A DNA stretch of 64,000 nt from Promethearchaeota archaeon. Its GTDB lineage: Archaea; Asgardarchaeota; Lokiarchaeia; Sigyniarchaeales; SOKP01. The stretch is from NCBI GenBank assembly GCA_019058295.1, contig JAHPZI010000006.1, forward strand, positions 32,001-96,000, given 5' to 3'. Shown one piece after another: positions 4,720 through 12,592 of the stretch (positions are counted from its first letter, which is position 1; every line of letters starts with the position of its first letter). The notes under the pieces were generated by a model. The model saw nothing but the letters and a program-made list of their open reading frames with translations. It searched no databases and was not told the DNA's origin. The position numbers and the translations under genes were made by a program.

Positions 4720-6369
4720 ATGAATATTTTAATAAAAAATGGAAATATTGTTGATGGTACTGGTTCTCCGGGATATAAATCTGATGTTTATATTAAAAAT
4801 AATAGAATTGAAAAGATTGGATTGAACCTGGAAGAAGAGGACTGTGAATTAATTGATGCGTCTAATAAAGTTGTCTCTCCTGGATTTATCGATATGCATT
4901 CTCACGGGGATCTTACGATATTAGAAGTAAACAAAGCTGAAGCAACTGTCATGCAAGGAGTTACAACTCTCGTAGTTGGAATGTGTGGGATAGGTCTTGC
5001 CCCTGCTAACGATAAAGTTCGAGAATATTATTCAAATTTGGTGGAAAATTTGTTTGGTTCAAGTAGATTACAATTATTTGATACTATTCAAGAATATATG
5101 GACGTAATAGAGAAAAAAGGAATTTCTACAAACCTAGCATTTTTTATACCGCATGGAAATGTACGAGCGAGTATAATGGGAATGGATGACCGCCCTGCTA
5201 CGCCAGCAGAATTAGAGGAAATGAAAAATATCATTAAAAGAGAATTAGAAGCTGGGGCTTTTGGTATGAGTACGGGTTTAATATATCCTCCTGGATCCAT
5301 AACATCTACAAAAGAAATTATTGAACTTTGCAAGGTTGTAAGTCAATACGGAGGTATTTACGACTCTCATATAAGAAACGAAGGGACCAAAATCTTAGAA
5401 GAGAGCGAAGGCATGGGTGAATTCATTAAAATTGTAAGAGAAGCAAATATTCAAGGTGAGATATCTCATTGGAAAGCTTCCGGTAATCTCGCATGGAAAT
5501 TAACTCCTAAGATGATTAAAATAGTAGAAAATGCGAGAAATGAAGGTCTTAAAATTTACGCAGATGTTTATCCTTATGAGGAGAGTTCTACTAGTTTGGC
5601 AGGATTTTTATTAAAACCTTGGGTTTTTAAAAATTTTAAAGAAAATTTAACTAATCCAAATACTAGACAAAAAATCATAGATGAAACAATTGATATGTTA
5701 ACCTCTACATTTTTAACTGACCTCACATCTAAAATGCAAGAAATCCCTACAACTAAAATTATAGAGCTTATGTTCAATTTTTTAAAAGATGGCGTAAGGA
5801 TAATCAGTGTTTTGCATAATCATAAAATGGAGGGGAAATTTTTAAACGATGCTTTGGAAATTCTTTATCCAAAAAAAGAAATAGCTGAAGCTTTATTGGA
5901 TTTCATTAGAGATGAGGAAGGGTCGATTATGGTTTCTTTTAAAGGAATGAACGAGAGAAAGAGCATTCTATCTTTATTCAAGCAAGATTTTGTATGTATT
6001 GGCTCTGATGGTTTTTTAGTTTTAGAAGGTAATACCCATCCACGAGCCTATGGATGTTTTCCAAAAATCTTGGCAAGGTACGTCAGAGAAAAGAAAATTG
6101 TATCATTAGAAGAAGGAATTAGAAAAATGACCTCATTAACCGCATCAATTTTGGGATTGAAAGACAGAGGGATTATCAGAGAAAATTACAAGGCAGATCT
6201 CGTAATATTTAATCCTATTGAAATAAAAGATAAAGCTACTTATCAAAACGGGCGTCAATTTCCAGACGGGATAGATTATGTCATTGTAAATGGAGAAATC
6301 ACTGTTAAAAATGAAAAACATTTAGGAGTACTAAATGGTCAAATTTTAAAGCACAGAAATAACGATTAA
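4720..6369 (+). CDS. N-acyl-D-amino-acid deacylase (amidohydrolase superfamily)
   Basis: PGFIDMHSHGD, QGVTT, GAFGMSTGLIYPPG, SHIRNE, IGSDG, HPRAYG, ADLVIF motifs. Confidence 0.92.
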   Translation: MNILIKNGNIVDGTGSPGYKSDVYIKNNRIEKIGLNLEEEDCELIDASNKVVSPGFIDMHSHGDLTILEVNKAEATVMQGVTTLVVGMCGIGLAPANDKVREYYSNLVENLFGSSRLQLFDTIQEYMDVIEKKGISTNLAFFIPHGNVRASIMGMDDRPATPAELEEMKNIIKRELEAGAFGMSTGLIYPPGSITSTKEIIELCKVVSQYGGIYDSHIRNEGTKILEESEGMGEFIKIVREANIQGEISHWKASGNLAWKLTPKMIKIVENARNEGLKIYADVYPYEESSTSLAGFLLKPWVFKNFKENLTNPNTRQKIIDETIDMLTSTFLTDLTSKMQEIPTTKIIELMFNFLKDGVRIISVLHNHKMEGKFLNDALEILYPKKEIAEALLDFIRDEEGSIMVSFKGMNERKSILSLFKQDFVCIGSDGFLVLEGNTHPRAYGCFPKILARYVREKKIVSLEEGIRKMTSLTASILGLKDRGIIRENYKADLVIFNPIEIKDKATYQNGRQFPDGIDYVIVNGEITVKNEKHLGVLNGQILKHRNND

Positions 6370-6540
6370 GAACATTGTTTTGTTTTGTTTTGTTTTTTTT
6401 AACTAAAGTATAAATATTTTAATTGGTATCAAAATATTATTAAATTATATTTTCAATAAAATATTATTAAATAAATTCGAATATAATTTATTGTAATTTG
6501 TATTTGAACCTTATATCAAATCTAAAAAAACTGATTAATA

Positions 6541-8868
6541 ATGAGTTTAAAAGAAATAACTAAGGAATTATTTACGAGATACGGGTTAACTGAAGAAGAG
6601 ATTAGTGTCTACATTAAATATCTTGGAGTGCCACAAGCAACAATTTCAGAAGTATTCATGTATTTTGAAGAGGGTGAGATTGAATATTCAGAAGTTGAAG
6701 AAATTACTAAAAAACTCGTTGAATCAAATTTTCTACAAAAGGTCGAAGGGATTGTAGATAGGTACGTACCACTCGAACCATTTTTTGAATTATTTACGAG
6801 CGAATCTGAAGCATTTAGACAGAAAATTGCTACTACTAAAGATAATGCTCTTTCTGATCAATCTAGTCGATTTGAAAAGCTGGAATCGATTCAAAATAAA
6901 AGTATCGAAGAAGTTGAGACCGCAGTTGACACTCAAGTGAAGGAATTTTTTCAAGATTCAGATGATAAGAATGCAAGTAAAAAAGAAAGAATTAATAAAG
7001 CAACGACCAGATTTACAGAAACATCTAAAACTTTAGAAAAAGATCTACACGATAATATAGAAAAAGACTTTTCAGAATTAGACAATGATATAAAACAGCT
7101 TGATACTGAATTTCATCAAATAGTAGATGGATTAATTTCTACTAATGAAACTTCAATTAACGCAGCCAAAACTGATATCGACAAAATTATTACTGATTTA
7201 TTAGGAGATTTCTCAACAAGAGTAAGCAATTTAGAAACTGAATTAAAAAAGGATTTGGATGATCATGTAGACAGACATAAGAACATTGCCAATGAACTTA
7301 AACCTAAAATGGAACAAATTCTTGAGAAATACCTCGAAAGAATGGATAAAATCGTTACTGATCTAAAGGAACGCATTTCAAGATTATTAGCTGACCATAT
7401 GAGCCATGTAAAAAGCACAACAAGTAATATTGAATCAGATATTCATACAAAAGTCGAAGATAGACATTTAGAAATAAAAAATATAATCAATTCATATAAA
7501 AATAGAGCCTTGACATTATTAGAAAATCTAATTACCCAATCAAATAAATTTAGTGATCTTGCTGAAGCAATTCCGAATACAGGTTTTTTCTTTGGAAAAA
7601 AGAAGAAATTGAAATATATTAATGCTTGGAAGGTTATAGAAACAGAAGTTGCAGATATTTCAAGACCATTCAAAGATGATTTTGTGAATGAGTGCGATAA
7701 ATATATTAATGATACTCAAAGTACTTCTGATGAACTAAAAAAGGAAGTATCAGATACCGTGGCAAATGAGAATCAATCATTAGGAACAGAAACGACTGAC
7801 CTTGATAAAAGAGCGCAAGAAACGATTACTGCAGAATTAGATACGCTTGCTACTGATATGTCCGGCGAAATTGATAATACATTACAAACTGGAGTAAAAG
7901 ATTGTTCTGATACTACTGTAAAACTGAAAGATTCATTAGAAAATTCTTTAAAAACACATCATAAAGACTATGATGATGCTATAAATAAACATAAAGATGG
8001 ATCCTTGAAACATTATACCGATTTCGATGCTGAGATTAAAGCTAAGTCATCTGAGTTTAAAGATAAACATACGAAGACTGGTAATGATAGATTAAGCAAA
8101 ATTCGAAGTGATTTTGATGGATCTAAATCTAATACATCTGGAAAAATTGATGCTGAGATTAATCTTTGGAATGAAGAATCTGCTGATATGGATGTTATGT
8201 TGGCTGATATGCTTGAAAATCATAAAAATAAATACAAACTAAATGCTGAAACTCTACAAAATAGTTTATCTAATACAACTCGAGATACTACTCAAAATGT
8301 GAAAGACGCAATTGCCGATTTTACACTTAATTTTATGAATGCTATTGATGATGTGACAGAAGCAGCTGAAAATAACGAAGAAAAACTTAAAGATATTCAT
8401 AACGCCTCTAGCTCAATTCCAGTTTCAGAAATCGCAAAAGTTACCACGTGGCATACGGTTGGAAGAACGGCGTTAATAGCAGCTGTTAAAGATGCTATCT
8501 ATCGAACCAAATCTTCAGTCATAGTTGTCACTCCCGTGGTTGTACCTGAAATTTTACAAGTTATCTCTGAATTTGCATATGAGAGAAAGGTAGCAAGATT
8601 TATGATCACTACACATTGGGATTTGAGTCAATACCAAGATATCCTTAAGAAGATGATGCAATTGGGCAACATTCAATTCCGCAATTTAAATACTCAGGGA
8701 GATTATTTTGCTGTAACTCGAGATGCCGAAGAAGTGATTCTGGCGCCCTATTCAGAGAAAGATTCAGAGATAATTAGCGTTATCAGTAATCACGAGCAAT
8801 ACTGTAATCTTTACTCCCAGATCATCGGACCAGTTTTTACAGCCAATAGTAGACCAGTTAAACTCTAA
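6541..8868 (+). CDS. TrmB-like wHTH + very long helical/coiled-coil insert + C-terminal TrmB effector/PLD-like domain
   Basis: N-term YGLTEEEISVY...ATISEV...KKLVESNFLQ...RYVPLEP (TrmB wHTH); aa ~81-626 helical; C-term WHTVGRTALIAAVKDAIYRTKSSVIVVTP...RDAEEVILAP. Confidence 0.75.
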   Translation: MSLKEITKELFTRYGLTEEEISVYIKYLGVPQATISEVFMYFEEGEIEYSEVEEITKKLVESNFLQKVEGIVDRYVPLEPFFELFTSESEAFRQKIATTKDNALSDQSSRFEKLESIQNKSIEEVETAVDTQVKEFFQDSDDKNASKKERINKATTRFTETSKTLEKDLHDNIEKDFSELDNDIKQLDTEFHQIVDGLISTNETSINAAKTDIDKIITDLLGDFSTRVSNLETELKKDLDDHVDRHKNIANELKPKMEQILEKYLERMDKIVTDLKERISRLLADHMSHVKSTTSNIESDIHTKVEDRHLEIKNIINSYKNRALTLLENLITQSNKFSDLAEAIPNTGFFFGKKKKLKYINAWKVIETEVADISRPFKDDFVNECDKYINDTQSTSDELKKEVSDTVANENQSLGTETTDLDKRAQETITAELDTLATDMSGEIDNTLQTGVKDCSDTTVKLKDSLENSLKTHHKDYDDAINKHKDGSLKHYTDFDAEIKAKSSEFKDKHTKTGNDRLSKIRSDFDGSKSNTSGKIDAEINLWNEESADMDVMLADMLENHKNKYKLNAETLQNSLSNTTRDTTQNVKDAIADFTLNFMNAIDDVTEAAENNEEKLKDIHNASSSIPVSEIAKVTTWHTVGRTALIAAVKDAIYRTKSSVIVVTPVVVPEILQVISEFAYERKVARFMITTHWDLSQYQDILKKMMQLGNIQFRNLNTQGDYFAVTRDAEEVILAPYSEKDSEIISVISNHEQYCNLYSQIIGPVFTANSRPVKL

Positions 8869-9132
8869 TCTAATAAACCACTTTTTATTTTATATTTTAT
8901 TTTATTAAAGATCACAAATAATTAGATATTATTTTTTTTGTTATCCTTATTCCAGCCTAATAATTAAAATAATTATTAAACAAAATTAGAAATCTAAAAA
9001 TTCTTTAATAAATTTGAGGATAGAGGCTGAAATTTAATAGATACTACTCAAGAAAAAGATACAACTTTTATTAGATAAAATTAAAAACGAGATTTAAAAA
9101 AAATTAATTAGTTTCTAGTAGCTATGCGAAAG

Positions 9133-10419
9133 TCAATCCCAGGTTGCCTTTGTAACTGAGGAATCATCGTCCTCTTCGTGAATACGCTTTAGGTCTATGT
9201 CTTGATAACCTGGTAATGTTTGGAGAATCCTTCTCATCGCAAATTTTATATCTTTTGCAGAGGCAATAAAGCGACCCACTATTAGAATATCCGCTCCCTG
9301 CTTTAGAGCGAATATTGCACTATTCGGTTCAATACCTCCCGCTACAGCAACTAAAACACGATCCCTCCCCGAAGCCTTTTTGTGTTCTTTGTATAATTCT
9401 TTGATTTTTGGAACCAAAGCCCATCTTGCTTTTTGCGCGGCATCCGGCGATTGATCACCTTCTACAGACTGCTCAACATCAATTGCTCTATGAAGTATAA
9501 CAACATCGGGGATTTGTTTTAGCGAACTCAATTTCGCAATCGGATCAGTCACTTCCATAGTATCAATAAAAGCATGAATACCAAGGCGCTGTGCTTCTAA
9601 GATAAATTTATCAAGTGATGCTGTAGAGGCTAAACCACTTGCTACAACTCCATCCGCAGTAGCGTCAAATGCGAAATCAACCTCTAATTTCCCTACATCC
9701 AATGTCTTTAAATCAGCCACTATGAAAGCTTCTTTAGCTACTTTTCTAATTTCTCTAATTGCATCCATACCATACTTCTTGAGAAATGGCGTCCCTACTT
9801 CAAGTATGATACGATCACTTTTTGGAAGTTCTTTTACTACTTTAACCTGCTTTTCGAGAGCTGGATGATCCAAAGCTACTTGAATATAAGGAGGTCTCCA
9901 TAATCTAGGGATCCTTATACCTGCCACTGGGTGTTTTGCTCTATCTTTATCATAGAATATCTTTTCAATTGGAGGATATTCCTTCAATGCTCTCTGGATT
10001 GCTAATTTAGTTGCACCATAATTGTATTGATATATTTTTCTATAGTCAGTCGCACCAGGATGAATAAAAACACTAGCAATTATAACCCACTCATCGAGTT
10101 TATTCATTGGAATAATTCCTTCTTCAACAGCATCTGCTACTCCCTTTGCAACTGCGGCTTGAGCAGGTCCAAAAATTTTGTTCGCATCCTCCATTTTCGC
10201 AACAGTAACTTTCGGAACAACTAAACTTATTGGTTTAGATAAAAGATTGGGTCTAATAGCTGCTAAGAGGCCACCGTGACCTTTGGAAGGCTCACTCAGA
10301 GCATTTGCAAAAGATATTCCAACGGGACCGCTTTTGGATCCAATAATTAGGTCAATATGAGCTAGGTTTTCCCCCTCACCTACTAATGCCTCACCAATAT
10401 AATATTCATTTTTAACCAT
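9133..10419 (-). CDS. fae-hps: Bifunctional formaldehyde-activating enzyme / 3-hexulose-6-phosphate synthase
   Basis: IGEALVGEG..AHIDLIIG, FGPAQAAVAKGVADAVEEG, YNYGATKLAI (Fae); LEVGTP, VADLKTLDVG, LHRAIDVE, AVAGGI (Hps). Start placed at ATG of MVKNE. Confidence 0.95.
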   Translation of the reverse strand: MVKNEYYIGEALVGEGENLAHIDLIIGSKSGPVGISFANALSEPSKGHGGLLAAIRPNLLSKPISLVVPKVTVAKMEDANKIFGPAQAAVAKGVADAVEEGIIPMNKLDEWVIIASVFIHPGATDYRKIYQYNYGATKLAIQRALKEYPPIEKIFYDKDRAKHPVAGIRIPRLWRPPYIQVALDHPALEKQVKVVKELPKSDRIILEVGTPFLKKYGMDAIREIRKVAKEAFIVADLKTLDVGKLEVDFAFDATADGVVASGLASTASLDKFILEAQRLGIHAFIDTMEVTDPIAKLSSLKQIPDVVILHRAIDVEQSVEGDQSPDAAQKARWALVPKIKELYKEHKKASGRDRVLVAVAGGIEPNSAIFALKQGADILIVGRFIASAKDIKFAMRRILQTLPGYQDIDLKRIHEEDDDSSVTKATWD

Positions 10420-10622
10420 ACAAAACACGTCTAATGTATTTTATTTAAAACATTGTATTTTGGAGATATTATAAAATAATTTTTACTTACAATTAAAACA
10501 AGTTAATTCACTAATATTAAAATTTCTATAATTATAATAATTTGAAAATGAAAATTTGCTTCAATCTTCTGAAAAAAAAAAAGCAAGAAAAAAAAAAAAA
10601 ATAAAATTTAAAATTTGTTGAT

Positions 10623-11615
10623 TTATACCGAAATTTCTCTTTTCTTTAAGCTTATCAATCCATAGATTAAAAGAAATACAGCAATACCAATCCAAACTAA
10701 CAAGGAAACCCATGGATATACATAATCTGTCCTTTTCATGCCGCCAGGGTTGATGCCTTGGTCGGGATCCGTAGGTGATGCAATATCATATACCCCAGTG
10801 AACTGAGCAAACCAAGTTTGCCATTCTGCTACTGGAGGAATTGCATTAAAGAAGTCTAAAAAGCCAACATAGATATTTCCTAAATGATATCCAAGATCGA
10901 TGATATATAAATAATAAGTCTCATAAGAATCAGCGAGGAACATTTTGAGAATCATCATACCTAAGAAAGAAAAAATCACTAAGAAAATTACTATTAATCC
11001 AGCATTTCTTGGTCGATTTACGATCGATGATAGTGCTAATGTAATACTGCAAAAAATAAGTAAAAGGACCAAAGAATAAAGATAGGTCACAAATAGGAAC
11101 GGAATGATTCCAAAAAAGTGAATAATGTTGGCAGAATATCTTAGTACAGCTATCCATCCTATTGAAAAAATGGCAACAAAACTTAGAGTAGCACCATAAA
11201 GGAATAATCCAATATATTTACCAATAAATATTTTCACTCGCATAATTGGTTTACTTACTAATATCAACATAGTTCCTGAATGAACCTCTTCGGAAATAAG
11301 CGAAGCTCCACTAGTACCAATAATGCAGATAAAGGAAATTCCTAAAGTCCAAAAGAATAGTATAAAAACAATAGCAATACTTATAGCTGCTGCAGCGTGC
11401 TGAGGAGAGATTGATTCATATTCAATTGTTGATGGAAAAGCAATAGTGACTATTAGAGGAATGAGCATAATAATTAAGGAAACGAGAAATTTCTTAAGCG
11501 ATGCTAATTCCTGAAATGTTTTTTTAACTAAGATAAGTGTATTTCTGTGTGTTTCTTTCTCTACTCCTTCTGTATCTTTTCTTGAAAAAACTGTTTTTAA
11601 TTTTGCGATGCTCAT
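10623..11615 (-). CDS. ABC-2 type transporter permease
   Basis: ISEEVHSGTMLILVSKPI.R..IFIGKY motif, ~6 TM; ATGA overlap with ATPase gene. Confidence 0.92.
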   Translation of the reverse strand: MSIAKLKTVFSRKDTEGVEKETHRNTLILVKKTFQELASLKKFLVSLIIMLIPLIVTIAFPSTIEYESISPQHAAAAISIAIVFILFFWTLGISFICIIGTSGASLISEEVHSGTMLILVSKPIMRVKIFIGKYIGLFLYGATLSFVAIFSIGWIAVLRYSANIIHFFGIIPFLFVTYLYSLVLLLIFCSITLALSSIVNRPRNAGLIVIFLVIFSFLGMMILKMFLADSYETYYLYIIDLGYHLGNIYVGFLDFFNAIPPVAEWQTWFAQFTGVYDIASPTDPDQGINPGGMKRTDYVYPWVSLLVWIGIAVFLLIYGLISLKKREISV

Positions 11616-12592
11616 TTTTTATCACCCTTTTCTACATAAACTTCCATAAAAATATCTTGAAGTGAGATTTCAGGTATATGGAAGCTATATAATATTGCGT
11701 TATTTTCTAATATCACCTTAGGCATTTCCTGCTTAAGTTTGTCCGCATCTTTAGGTATTATTTGGATTGTTCCATCTTCTTCTTTTAGCCATGTATTTTG
11801 GATATAATCTTTCCGTTCTAAAGATTTTAAAATTTGCTCGTTCTTATTGGTGTCTAATTCATATGTATTGCCGATGTATTGTTGCTTAATATTTTTTAGA
11901 GTATCAGAGATAACAATTGCACCCTTATTAATCATAGTTACTCTGTCGCACATCTGTTCAATTTCAGATAAAATGTGGCTTGATACAAAAACACTTACTG
12001 TTTTAGAGATTTCCTTAATTTTATCAATAATATTTGCGCGTCCTATAGGATCTAAATTAGCTGTTGGCTCATCTAATATAAGAAGTTTCGGTTTGTGTAT
12101 TAATGCTGCCGCTATACCAATTTTTTGTTTCATACCACCTGAATATTCACCGATAGGTCTAGTTCTATCATTAAAAATATCAAAATAAACACACAATTCT
12201 TGAGCTCTCTTCCTTGCTTCCATCTTATTCAATCCTCCCAACTTTCCCATATAAATCAAATATTCTTCTCCTGTCATCTTGTCGTAAAACACTGGATCTT
12301 GAGGTAAAAATCCTATTAAGCGTCGTGCTTCTACTGTACCTGCTTTTTCGTTTCTGATTTTTGCTTCACCCGACGAAATAGCAAGGGCTCCAACCAACAT
12401 ATTCATTGTTGTTGTCTTACCAGCTCCATTAGGACCAAGAAAACCATGAATTCCAGGTTCTATGCGTAGATTTATTTTCTTTACAGCTTCAAATGCTTTG
12501 TCTTTTTTCCCATAGATTTTTTGAAGTTCATGACTCCAAATTTCATATTGAAATTCTGCTTCTTTCTCATATGCTTTCTTTCTCTTAATCAT
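11612..12592 (-). CDS. ABC-2 type transporter ATP-binding protein
   Basis: GPNGAGKTT Walker A, YSGGMKQK signature, LILDEPT Walker B, SSHIL. Confidence 0.97.
   Translation of the reverse strand: MIKRKKAYEKEAEFQYEIWSHELQKIYGKKDKAFEAVKKINLRIEPGIHGFLGPNGAGKTTTMNMLVGALAISSGEAKIRNEKAGTVEARRLIGFLPQDPVFYDKMTGEEYLIYMGKLGGLNKMEARKRAQELCVYFDIFNDRTRPIGEYSGGMKQKIGIAAALIHKPKLLILDEPTANLDPIGRANIIDKIKEISKTVSVFVSSHILSEIEQMCDRVTMINKGAIVISDTLKNIKQQYIGNTYELDTNKNEQILKSLERKDYIQNTWLKEEDGTIQIIPKDADKLKQEMPKVILENNAILYSFHIPEISLQDIFMEVYVEKGDKK

What the first reader, a model, noticed from the sequence alone, without database searches (positions are those of the whole stretch)
6541..8868. TrmB-like protein split by a symmetric helical hairpin with an FFFGKKKK tip: candidate chromosome-membrane tether
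Seen: a wHTH (aa 1-80) and a TrmB effector/PLD-like domain (aa ~630-775) are separated by ~550 nearly proline-free helical residues. The only clear break, IPNTGFFFGKKKKLK (aa 344-358, nt ~7570-7614), lies almost exactly in the middle, giving arms of ~264 and ~270 aa. Known: TrmB normally has only a short dimerisation helix between these domains, and aromatic+polybasic loops are a common way to bind anionic membranes. Inference: the arms fold back as an antiparallel rod (~40 nm at 0.15 nm/residue), reuniting the TrmB halves at one end with a membrane-inserting tip at the other, as in SMC arms or dynamin paddles but with no NTPase. It could link DNA to membrane or polymerise as a cytoskeletal/nucleoid scaffold. 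The gene is stand-alone.
Basis: partly seen in the sequence, partly recalled or inferred. Interest (0 to 1): 0.82.

Follow-up and report, generated by a model that had tools for sequence, protein, structure and literature searches.

The report
Hairpin-armed TrmB-like Asgard rod protein
An Asgard archaeon encodes a DNA-regulator-type protein whose two halves are joined by a folded-back helical rod about 40 nm long with a conserved greasy, positively charged tip. The fold-back is strongly supported by exactly matched insertions in the two arms, but the proposed role as a DNA-to-membrane tether is untested.

Summary
The ORF (6541-8868, +, 775 aa) is real. The family or its C-terminal domain matched in 206 of 301 Asgard genomes searched, and 62 of 68 in its own family.

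**Ends.** They are the two halves of a TrmB/TrmBL2-type protein:
- a TrmB wHTH (Pfam, just above threshold);
- a PLD-like domain that superposes on TrmB residues 110-243 (Z 18, 1.9 A), with no HKD motif and no sugar-binding subdomain.

**Rod.** About 545 residues of hendecad (11/3) helix lie between them. The fold-back is strongly supported:
- In 134 full-length relatives, insertions in the N and C arms are identical in length in every case (12 classes, +0 to +150 aa, at least 17 independent changes).
- The break sits at the exact midpoint.
- AlphaFold2 gives an antiparallel two-helix rod of about 40 nm.

**Tip.** It has Gly, two or three aromatic/hydrophobic residues and four or five Lys/Arg. 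It is conserved and is the most basic stretch of a protein with net charge -44.

**Open.** What the tip binds is untested. Membrane tethering is plausible, not shown. DNA binding by the unusually acidic wHTH is only inferred.

I found no paper describing the family. Earlier reports of this scan described giant, operon-encoded relatives on other DNA.

The parts
6541..8868 (+). Whole gene, 775 codons plus stop
   Evidence: There are 347 homologues; the 120 best are full-length.
6511..6518 (+). TATA-like TTATATCA, 23-30 nt upstream of the ATG, with no Shine-Dalgarno-like run. This suggests a possible promoter of a leaderless or short-leader mRNA (inference only; the spacer is very AT-rich).
   Evidence: sequence read directly
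6577..6780 (+). TrmB-type winged helix-turn-helix, aa 13-80
   Evidence: Pfam PF01978 26.9 bits against cut-off 25.6. A family profile hits TrmB 3qph at E 4.7e-9 and TrmBL2 at 2e-7.
6781..7569 (+). N arm, aa 81-343: hendecad coiled-coil helix with core positions a, d/e, h. It starts where the TrmB linker helix starts.
   Evidence: period 3.66, register coherent over 130+ residues; helices 81-197 and 206-346
7054..7170 (+). N-arm length-variable zone (aa ~172-210). This is the site of the insertions that define the length classes, and it has low model confidence (191-210).
7570..7614 (+). Hairpin tip, aa 344-358: Gly, three Phe, Gly, then a Lys run. It is the most basic stretch of the protein.
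   Evidence: conservation; loop 347-352; it sits at the exact midpoint of the rod in relatives; charge +5 here, family mean +7.2
7615..8433 (+). C arm, aa 359-631: hendecad helix antiparallel to the N arm. Its last ~60 residues correspond to the TrmBL2 linker helix leading into the PLD-like domain.
   Evidence: (model 571-774 aligned to TrmBL2 5box_A residues 66-264)
8005..8130 (+). C-arm length-variable zone (aa ~489-530). It mirrors the N-arm zone (i + j about 700), and its insertions always equal those of the N arm.
8434..8865 (+). C-terminal PLD-like domain of the TrmB type, aa 632-775. It has no HxK(x)4D motif and no sugar-binding subdomain follows it.
   Evidence: (2f5t Z 18.1, rmsd 1.9 A; TrmBL2 Z 15.6; NucT Z 14.9), (no HKD)

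Best explanation
**Shown or strongly supported.** The protein is a TrmB/TrmBL2-type two-domain head: a wHTH plus a catalytically dead PLD-like domain. Its single linker helix has been expanded into a ~545-residue hendecad coiled coil. The coil folds back on itself at a conserved Gly/aromatic/polybasic loop. The result is a straight, antiparallel two-helix rod of about 40 nm that reunites the two head domains at one end. Evolution changes the rod's length only by equal insertions in both arms, so the family behaves as a set of fixed-length rods: about 38 nm in the commonest 751-aa form and about 60 nm in 1050-aa relatives.

**Inferred.** The head, probably dimeric as in TrmB proteins, sits on DNA as the nucleoid protein TrmBL2 does. 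The strongly acidic rod (net about -40) is repelled by both DNA and anionic lipid, so it stands off. The tip, the only strongly basic and aromatic patch, docks on a second anionic surface, most plausibly the cytoplasmic face of the membrane. The protein would then act as a passive, ATP-independent spacer or tether between chromatin and membrane.
For: **Head identity**
- Pfam TrmB is above its cut-off.
- A family profile hits TrmB and TrmBL2.
- The C-domain matches TrmB at Z 18.1 and rmsd 1.9 A.
- The C-arm end plus the C-domain align to TrmBL2 residues 66-264.

**Hairpin**
- dN = dC in 134 of 134 sequences, for increments of 0, 11, 22, 29, 40, 44, 51, 62, 73, 84, 106 and 150 aa. Fitch parsimony gives at least 17 independent changes.
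- One relative (L021) has a second matched pair (-11/-11) nearer the tip.
- The tip lies at the exact rod midpoint in relatives down to ~20% identity.
- AF2 gives helices 81-197, 206-346, loop, 353-495, 507-624.
- In the minimal form the C arm is an unbroken helix, 367-603.
- The tip-centred part of the model aligns end to end with Smc coiled-coil fragments (5nnv_A, 227 of 233 residues; 5xg2_A, 230 of 237) and with chemoreceptor hairpins (2ch7_B, 300 residues; 1qu7_B, 221 of 221).
- Weak co-variation ridges lie at i+j = 697-708 for both the tip-proximal and the head-proximal helix pairs.

**Hendecad register:**

**Tip:** conserved. Net charge is +5 here (family mean +7.2), on arms of -16 and -25.

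**Constraint and expression**
- The family is near-universal in its own taxonomic family (62/68). The window's genome holds one full-length copy.
- More than 100 polar rod positions are at least 90% conserved.
- Contigs of four metatranscriptome studies lie inside the ORF. This is a weak hint of expression.

**Known biology:** TrmBL2 is a DNA-coating chromatin protein and an SMC roadblock (abstracts of PMC4877046 and PMC11840125; neither paper was opened).
Against: - No lipid or DNA binding was or could be measured here.
- The wHTH is more acidic than those of TrmB and TrmBL2. This copy has Glu51 where they have the recognition-helix Arg; the family has T/K/R there.
- A Lys-rich tip could bind DNA or a protein partner equally well.
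- The very high conservation of the polar rod surface suggests the rod is more than a passive spacer.
- Matched indels and co-variation cannot tell an intramolecular hairpin from an antiparallel dimer of extended chains.
- Global model confidence is modest (pTM 0.39 and 0.36).
Confidence: 0.4

Rival explanations
1. DNA-DNA bridging or nucleoid scaffold. The head binds one DNA segment, and the Lys-rich tip binds a second DNA segment or another tip. The rods would cross-link or space chromatin fibres at a fixed distance, as an ATP-free counterpart of SMC or Rad50 arms.
For: The head is closest to the chromatin protein TrmBL2. The arm is SMC-like and length-matched. The tip carries four to five consecutive Lys/Arg. 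Stand-alone copies of the same C-domain often carry Lys-rich tails, so polybasic DNA-type contacts recur in this domain's relatives.
Against: The invariant aromatic residues next to the Lys run (F350 121/121; F/L351; W/T/F 352, aromatic in 92 of 121) are more typical of membrane-interface motifs than of DNA-binding loops (own knowledge). There is no hinge or CxxC hook for tip-tip pairing.
Confidence: 0.2
2. Self-assembling structural element. The rods pack side by side, or head to tip, into filaments or a lattice (cytoskeleton or nucleoid shell). The head domains serve mainly as dimerisation or partner-binding modules rather than DNA binders.
For: Surface conservation is unusually high for a coiled coil: polar positions average 0.69-0.78 identity among 37 representatives below 80% identity, and more than 100 polar rod positions are at least 90% conserved. 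The wHTH is acidic. PLD-like domains commonly dimerise (own knowledge).
Against: A net charge of about -40 on the rod argues against simple lateral packing without counter-ions or partners. The hydrophobic stripe is narrow: about 26% large hydrophobic residues.
Confidence: 0.2
3. Transcription regulator controlled by sequestration. A TrmB-type repressor or activator whose tip reports on a membrane or partner state and thereby holds the head away from, or releases it to, its operators.
For: TrmB family membership of both end domains. Other membrane-sequestered regulators are known (own knowledge).
Against: There is no effector-binding subdomain; the protein ends with the PLD-like domain. No conserved target gene lies next to it. 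A length-conserved 40-60 nm rod is unnecessary for sequestration. The recognition helix is acidic and variable.
Confidence: 0.1
4. The topology is not an intramolecular hairpin. Either two fully extended chains pair antiparallel (about 80 nm, with a mixed head at each end), or the four helices fold at the variable zones into a four-helix bundle of about 20 nm.
For: Matched indels and i+j co-variation fit an antiparallel extended dimer equally well. Both models have low confidence at the variable zones.
Against: A conserved Gly-containing loop sits at the exact midpoint. AF2 folds the monomer back. The C arm of the minimal form is one continuous helix of 237 residues, which excludes the fold-back bundle in that model. 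There is no co-variation ridge at the registers a four-helix bundle would need, 402 and 1002. The hydrophobic stripe is too narrow for a four-helix core.
Confidence: 0.07

Closest known systems
TrmBL2 and TrmB of Thermococcales (PDB 5box/5bpd/5bpi/5bqt; 3qph, 2f5t)
   Same: Same N-terminal wHTH family. Same PLD-like domain (Z 15-18). Same order: wHTH, then helix, then PLD-like domain. As in TrmBL2, nothing follows the PLD-like domain (in one search its alignment runs to TrmBL2 residue 264 of 263-264-residue chains). There is no HKD motif.
   Different: The single linker helix (TrmBL2 residues about 66-122) is replaced by a ~545-residue antiparallel hendecad hairpin with a conserved tip. The wHTH is more acidic. 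The family was found only in Asgard archaea in these searches.
SMC / Rad50 / MukB coiled-coil arms
   Same: A long intramolecular antiparallel coiled coil reunites N- and C-terminal head parts. The strands are length-matched in evolution. The tip-centred model aligns end to end with Smc arm fragments.
   Different: There is no ABC ATPase head, no Walker A, and no hinge or zinc hook. The repeat is a hendecad, not a heptad. The head is a TrmB-type DNA-binding module.
Methyl-accepting chemotaxis protein signalling hairpin
   Same: An antiparallel helical hairpin that changes length by symmetric insertions in both arms and has a conserved functional tip (own knowledge of the MCP heptad classes). 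The model aligns with 2ch7_B and 1qu7_B.
   Different: Insertions are in units of 11 (or 29+11n) residues, not 7. There is no MCPsignal Pfam match. The tip motif and end domains are different, and there is no chemotaxis context.
Giant Asgard TrmB-headed rods reported earlier in this scan (1,440-1,478 aa, ~75-90 nm)
   Same: Same head domains, hendecad rod and length-matched halves, and Asgard-only distribution. Relatives of 1,000-1,790 aa also appeared in my own search.
   Different: Those are two to three times longer and are reported to lie in an operon with a P-loop ATPase and a coiled-coil protein. This gene has no such neighbour, and its genome, 79% complete, shows no giant copy.
RacA and Noc of Bacillus subtilis (functional analogues; own knowledge, not tested)
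   Same: A DNA-binding domain joined to a second site that attaches to the pole or membrane. RacA does this through a coiled coil, Noc through a basic amphipathic membrane-targeting helix. This is the logic proposed here.
   Different: No sequence or fold relationship. Neither has a fold-back rod, and the analogy rests on the untested tether hypothesis.
Apolipoprotein A1/A4/E 11-mer repeats (PF01442)
   Same: An 11-residue amphipathic helical period gives sub-threshold Pfam hits (35 bits here, up to 91 bits in a distant relative).
   Different: The hit is below the cut-off here. There is no Pro punctuation, the hydrophobic stripe is narrow and coiled-coil-like, and there is no evidence of lipid-surface binding along the rod.

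Membership tests
TrmB family (archaeal TrmB/TrmBL2) | N-terminal TrmB-type winged helix-turn-helix (PF01978) | tested here: met
   26.9 bits against gathering cut-off 25.6 at aa 13-80. A family profile hits TrmB 3qph at E 4.7e-9 and TrmBL2 5bpd at 2e-7.
TrmB family (archaeal TrmB/TrmBL2) | PLD-like domain C-terminal to the linker helix | tested here: met
   Structural match of aa 635-775 to TrmB 2f5t residues 110-243 (Z 18.1, rmsd 1.9 A, 132 aligned) and to TrmBL2 (Z 15.6), repeated with the second model. By sequence, Pfam PF11495 gave no hit.
TrmB family (archaeal TrmB/TrmBL2) | One short linker/dimerisation helix between the two domains | tested here: not met
   About 545 helical residues in two arms, against roughly residues 66-122 in TrmBL2 (alignment ranges).
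TrmB family (archaeal TrmB/TrmBL2) | Sugar-binding C-terminal subdomain (TrmB proper) | tested here: not met
   The protein ends at aa 775 with the PLD-like domain. The alignment to TrmB stops at chain residue 243. In this respect it resembles TrmBL2.
TrmB family (archaeal TrmB/TrmBL2) | Binds DNA through the wHTH | not testable with these tools
   Only indirect evidence: wHTH net charge is -9 (family mean -4.5; TrmBL2 +1, TrmB -1), and Glu51 aligns with the recognition-helix Arg of TrmB and TrmBL2.
SMC / Rad50 superfamily | ABC-type ATPase head (Walker A/B, signature motif) | tested here: not met
   No Walker A pattern. No SMC_N or AAA Pfam hit.
SMC / Rad50 superfamily | Intramolecular antiparallel coiled-coil arm with length-matched strands | tested here: met
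   dN = dC in 134 of 134 sequences, 12 classes, at least 17 changes. AF2 gives a hairpin. The model aligns with Smc arm fragments.
SMC / Rad50 superfamily | Hinge domain or CxxC zinc hook at the apex | tested here: not met
   The apex is a loop of about 6 residues. There is no CxxC; Cys occurs only at 385, 455 and 755.
MCP signalling domain (PF00015) | Heptad-based hairpin with an MCPsignal sequence signature | tested here: not met
   The period is 3.66-3.68, not 3.5. Indels come in units of 11 or 29+11n. There is no PF00015 hit.
Apolipoprotein A1/A4/E (PF01442) | Score at or above the Pfam gathering cut-off (90 bits) | tested here: not met
   35.3 bits. The hit reflects the shared 11-residue period only.
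Catalytic phospholipase D / Nuc superfamily | HxK(x)4D catalytic motif | tested here: not met
   No H.K....D anywhere, and no HxK within the C-domain. The fold match to NucT and Nuc is Z 14-15.

The most novel reading that the evidence does not exclude
The family is an Asgard-specific, ATP-independent chromatin-to-membrane tether. TrmBL2-like heads coat or mark DNA, and fixed-length acidic rods (about 38 to 60 nm, set by lineage) hold the nucleoid at a defined distance from the membrane through the aromatic/polybasic tips. This would be a prokaryotic functional counterpart of the chromatin-envelope tethers of eukaryotes, in their closest archaeal relatives.
Probability: 0.2. Interest if true: 0.9.

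Novelty: new variant of a known kind. Interest (0 to 1): 0.72.

Why it matters
- **How widespread it is.** The family or its C-domain matched in most Asgard genomes searched. In this genome and most of its close kin there is one full-length copy. It is constrained along its whole length, and I found no paper describing it.
- **A new architecture.** It joins a chromatin-protein head to an SMC-like fold-back arm without any motor. I found no description of this combination.
- **A clean example of evolutionary coupling.** At least 17 independent paired insertions of identical length occur in units of the 11-residue repeat. This makes the family a useful natural system for studying hendecad coiled coils and molecular rulers.
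- **If the tip binds membrane or a second DNA.** The protein would then be a direct handle on how the nucleoid is organised in the archaeal lineage from which eukaryotes arose. The question is now testable with a single recombinant protein and a few point mutants.

Tried and rejected
- **Complex prediction**, two copies of aa 206-495: verdict 'no answer' (score 0.26, mark 0.42). It says nothing either way about rod dimerisation.
- **First motif-based anchor script** gave wrong N-arm lengths (r = 0.38). It was discarded in favour of alignment-based counts.
- **One MAFFT run** timed out.
- **Co-variation (MI with APC)** on only ~29 effective sequences. The ridge at i+j about 700 is weak (about 2.7-2.9 sd), and the parallel-register control is contaminated by tip-near pairs. 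I use it only as minor support.
- **Sequence searches of the C-domain.** No Pfam or NCBIfam family and no PDB sequence hit. Its identity came only from the fold.
- **NCBIfam ZorA hits** (E 7.5e-4, 17.9 bits against cut-off 190) are long-helix noise.
- **Independent replicates of the matched-indel test.** The Heimdall subfamily of P0148 has 9 members, all 763 aa. Another subfamily, seven genomes of taxonomic family f29, has no internal indels. Neither is informative.
- **Long-rod relatives (~1000-1140 aa).** They show single central deletions of 22 and 114 aa near the rod midpoint. This fits shortening at a tip but does not discriminate.
- **Conserved partner genes.** None beyond close kin. Small ORFs downstream of two distant relatives are unrelated to each other. 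An ABC ATPase and permease upstream of the Heimdall relative, and an ABC pair 1.7 kb downstream in the window, look coincidental.
- **Literature.** No paper on this architecture.
- **Metatranscriptome contigs.** Four studies cover parts of the ORF and not its flanks. Contigs cannot prove transcription.
Full report
**The object.** Window 6541..8868 (+) is an open frame of 775 codons in a ~30% G+C region. A 171-nt AT-rich spacer separates it from the upstream amidohydrolase gene. A convergent Fae-Hps gene follows it. The spacer has a TATA-like TTATATCA 23-30 nt before the ATG and no Shine-Dalgarno-like run, so a leaderless transcript is possible; this is inference only.

**The gene is real and conserved.** A word-indexed search returned 347 proteins with E<=0.001. 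The best 120 are all full-length at 46-95% identity and come from Promethearchaeota, Loki-, Hermod-, Hod- and Thorarchaeota MAGs. An exhaustive HMMER scan of 1.84 billion representatives gave 207 hits.

Among 301 Asgard genomes sampled, 206 have a match to the protein or its C-domain, and 62 of 68 in the window's own family. Genomes of that family mostly show one full-length copy. The window's genome (79% complete) has one full copy plus one stand-alone C-domain paralogue. Language-model and fold look-alikes with long rods are all Promethearchaeota clusters. A 763-aa subfamily at ~22% identity is named Heimdallarchaeota by NCBI.

**The two ends are the two halves of a TrmB/TrmBL2-type protein.**
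- Pfam finds the TrmB wHTH at aa 13-80, just above its cut-off.
- A profile of the family's N-termini hits TrmB (3qph, E 4.7e-9) and TrmBL2 (2e-7) as best solved structures.
- The C-terminal 140 residues match no sequence family. In the AlphaFold2 model (mean pLDDT 77 overall, above 90 in this domain) they superpose on the PLD-like subdomain of TrmB (2f5t residues 110-243, Z 18.1, rmsd 1.9 A), on TrmBL2 (Z 15.6) and, less well, on Nuc/NucT/Zucchini/FAM83 (Z 12-15).
- There is no HxK(x)4D motif, no Walker A and no CxxC.
- The protein stops where TrmB's sugar-binding subdomain would begin, as in TrmBL2.
- The last ~60 residues of the C arm plus the C-domain align with TrmBL2 residues 66-264.

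The rod is therefore, literally, an expansion of the TrmB linker helix.

**The rod is a hendecad coiled coil.** Family-averaged hydrophobicity has a single sharp period of 3.66-3.68 residues in every segment of both arms. In the N arm the power is 350 at 3.67 against 3.7 at 3.5. Stacking the sequence in rows of 11 shows a register (a, d/e, h) that stays in phase for more than 130 residues. Large hydrophobic residues make up only ~26% of the rod, a narrow stripe typical of a two-helix pairing. The sub-threshold 'Apolipoprotein' Pfam hits reflect this 11-residue period.

**The rod folds back.** Four lines of evidence agree.

1. *Matched insertions.* Length variation in the family is confined to two zones, aa ~172-210 and ~489-530. 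These lie mirror-symmetrically about the central motif. I counted residues between conserved anchors in 134 full-length sequences, including a second tier at 36-52% identity fetched from genomes. The N-arm and C-arm increments are identical in every sequence: 0, 11, 22, 29, 40, 44, 51, 62, 73, 84, 106 and 150 residues. On a tree built from the constant regions, parsimony needs at least 17 changes of length class, each a coordinated pair of insertions or deletions. One relative also carries a second matched pair (-11/-11) in the otherwise constant tip-proximal segments. The increments are multiples of 11, or 29 plus multiples of 11, so they preserve the helical phase.
2. *Midpoint.* The central motif lies at the arithmetic midpoint between the end of the wHTH and the start of the C-domain. 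This holds in the close family, in the second tier and in ~20%-identical subfamilies, where it reads differently but keeps the same character: Gly or Pro, two hydrophobic/aromatic residues, two or more basic residues.
3. *AlphaFold2.* For this protein it gives helices 81-197, 206-346, a loop at 347-352, then helices 353-495 and 507-624. Low-confidence stretches at 191-210 and 489-508 mirror each other (i+j about 699). For the minimal 751-aa form the C arm is one uninterrupted helix of 237 residues. That excludes, in the model, a four-helix fold-back bundle. The tip-centred parts of the models align end to end with Smc arm fragments (5nnv_A 227/233, 5xg2_A 230/237) and chemoreceptor hairpins (2ch7_B 300 residues, 1qu7_B 221/221), at Z about 10. 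For long helices that shows a common arrangement only.
4. *Co-variation.* A crude scan (about 29 effective sequences) gives its highest ridges at i+j = 697-708 for both the tip-proximal and the head-proximal helix pairs. It gives none at the registers a four-helix bundle would require. I treat this as minor support.

At 0.15 nm per residue the arms (266 and 272 helical residues) give about 40 nm. The commonest 751-aa form gives about 38 nm and the 1050-aa relatives about 60 nm. These data cannot exclude an antiparallel pair of fully extended chains, which would satisfy the same symmetry. The conserved central loop and the monomer models argue against it.

**The tip.** In 121 close homologues G348 (119), F350 (121), F/L351 (120), K355 (121), K/R356 (121) and K358 (120) are conserved. 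Residue 352 is W in 83 sequences, T in 22 and F in 9, so aromatic in 92. The consensus is Gly, Phe-Phe, then Trp, Thr or Phe, one variable residue, Gly, then four Lys, Tyr, Lys, Ala, Arg. The 20-residue tip has net charge +5 here (family mean +7.2) and contains the most basic 15-mer of the protein. The arms carry -16 and -25 and the whole protein -44. There is no transmembrane-like segment.

**What remains inference.**
- *DNA binding by the head* rests on homology alone. The wHTH is more acidic than those of TrmB and TrmBL2. In this copy Glu51 aligns with their recognition-helix Arg, while the family mostly has Thr, Lys or Arg there.
- *Membrane binding by the tip* rests on its resemblance to aromatic/polybasic membrane-targeting motifs (own knowledge). 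It is equally a candidate DNA- or partner-binding patch.
- *The rod surface* is far more conserved than a passive spacer needs: more than 100 polar positions are at least 90% conserved among 37 representatives below 80% identity. This hints at lateral assembly or bound partners.
- *A homodimer test* of the tip-proximal hairpin gave no verdict.
- *Neighbouring genes* are conserved only among close kin (amidohydrolase upstream, Fae-Hps downstream) and differ in distant relatives. The gene appears to stand alone, unlike the giant relatives described below.
- *Expression.* Contigs from four metatranscriptome studies cover parts of the ORF at 90-99% identity and not its flanks. This is a weak hint of expression.

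**Relation to what is known.**
- The closest characterised proteins are TrmBL2, a DNA-coating chromatin protein (PMC4877046) and SMC roadblock (PMC11840125), as their abstracts state (neither paper was opened), and TrmB.
- The arm behaves like SMC/Rad50 arms and, in its symmetric length classes, like chemoreceptor hairpins. It lacks their ATPase, hinge/hook, heptads and signalling signature.
- I found no paper on this architecture.
- First readers of this scan flagged the same family in several other genomes.
- Earlier follow-up reports described giant (1,440-1,478 aa) Heimdall-group relatives encoded with a P-loop ATPase. My searches also recovered 1,000-1,790-aa relatives with the same end domains. 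The present gene has no such ATPase neighbour, and its genome shows no giant copy.

**Verdict.** The fold-back rod is strongly supported, and I put it near 0.9. The tether function is a reasonable but untested hypothesis. I put membrane tethering at roughly 0.2-0.4 depending on how strictly it is defined, with DNA bridging and self-assembly as serious rivals. I class the gene as a new variant of a known kind: a TrmB-family protein with an SMC-like, motor-less arm.

Noticed in passing
own genome G000:C21:216244-216597 (locus L003 1375-1944, +): A stand-alone 189-aa paralogue of the C-terminal PLD-like domain (39% identical to aa 643-763) ends in a Lys-rich tail. Similar stand-alone copies (145-217 aa), several with K-rich tails, are common among the representatives (P0151, P0153, P0177). 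They might pair with or cap the head domain.
   Followed up: partly
proteins P0141 (749 aa) and P0144 (586 aa): The same C-domain also occurs fused to TPR repeats, zinc ribbons and a helix-hairpin-helix domain. It is therefore a mobile module used in other architectures.
   Followed up: no
window 6376-6402 and 6511-6518: A (TTTTG)n / T-rich run lies directly after the stop of the upstream amidohydrolase gene and looks terminator-like. A TATA-like TTATATCA lies 23-30 nt before the ATG of the rod gene, with no Shine-Dalgarno-like run, suggesting an independent, possibly leaderless transcript.
   Followed up: no
window 9133-10428 (-): A Fae-Hps fusion gene (formaldehyde-activating enzyme / hexulose-phosphate synthase type) lies convergent to the rod gene. 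The pairing is kept in relatives at 56-58% identity (L001, L004) but not in distant ones. This looks like local synteny rather than a functional link.
   Followed up: partly
window 10623-12592 (-); locus L006 4126-5643 (+): An ABC ATPase plus a multi-pass permease lies 1.7 kb downstream in the window. A similar pair lies directly upstream, on the same strand, of the Heimdall 763-aa relative. The pair is absent from the other loci inspected, so this is probably coincidence.
   Followed up: partly
proteins P0189/P0221/P0258/P0208/P0229/P0213/P0247/P0249: In a ~1000-1140-aa subfamily, length differences are single deletions of 22 and 114 residues centred within about 13 residues of the rod midpoint. 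It looks as if these rods are shortened from the tip rather than at paired internal sites.
   Followed up: partly
family-wide: Arm increments fall into two series: multiples of 11 (0, 11, 22, 44) and 29 plus multiples of 11 (29, 40, 51, 62, 73, 84, 106, 150). This suggests one ancestral 29-residue (8-turn) insertion followed by hendecad additions.
   Followed up: no
window 6658-8874: Contigs from four independent sediment or wetland metatranscriptome studies match parts of the ORF at 90-99% identity. None covers the flanks 6200-6587 or 8916-9100.
   Followed up: partly
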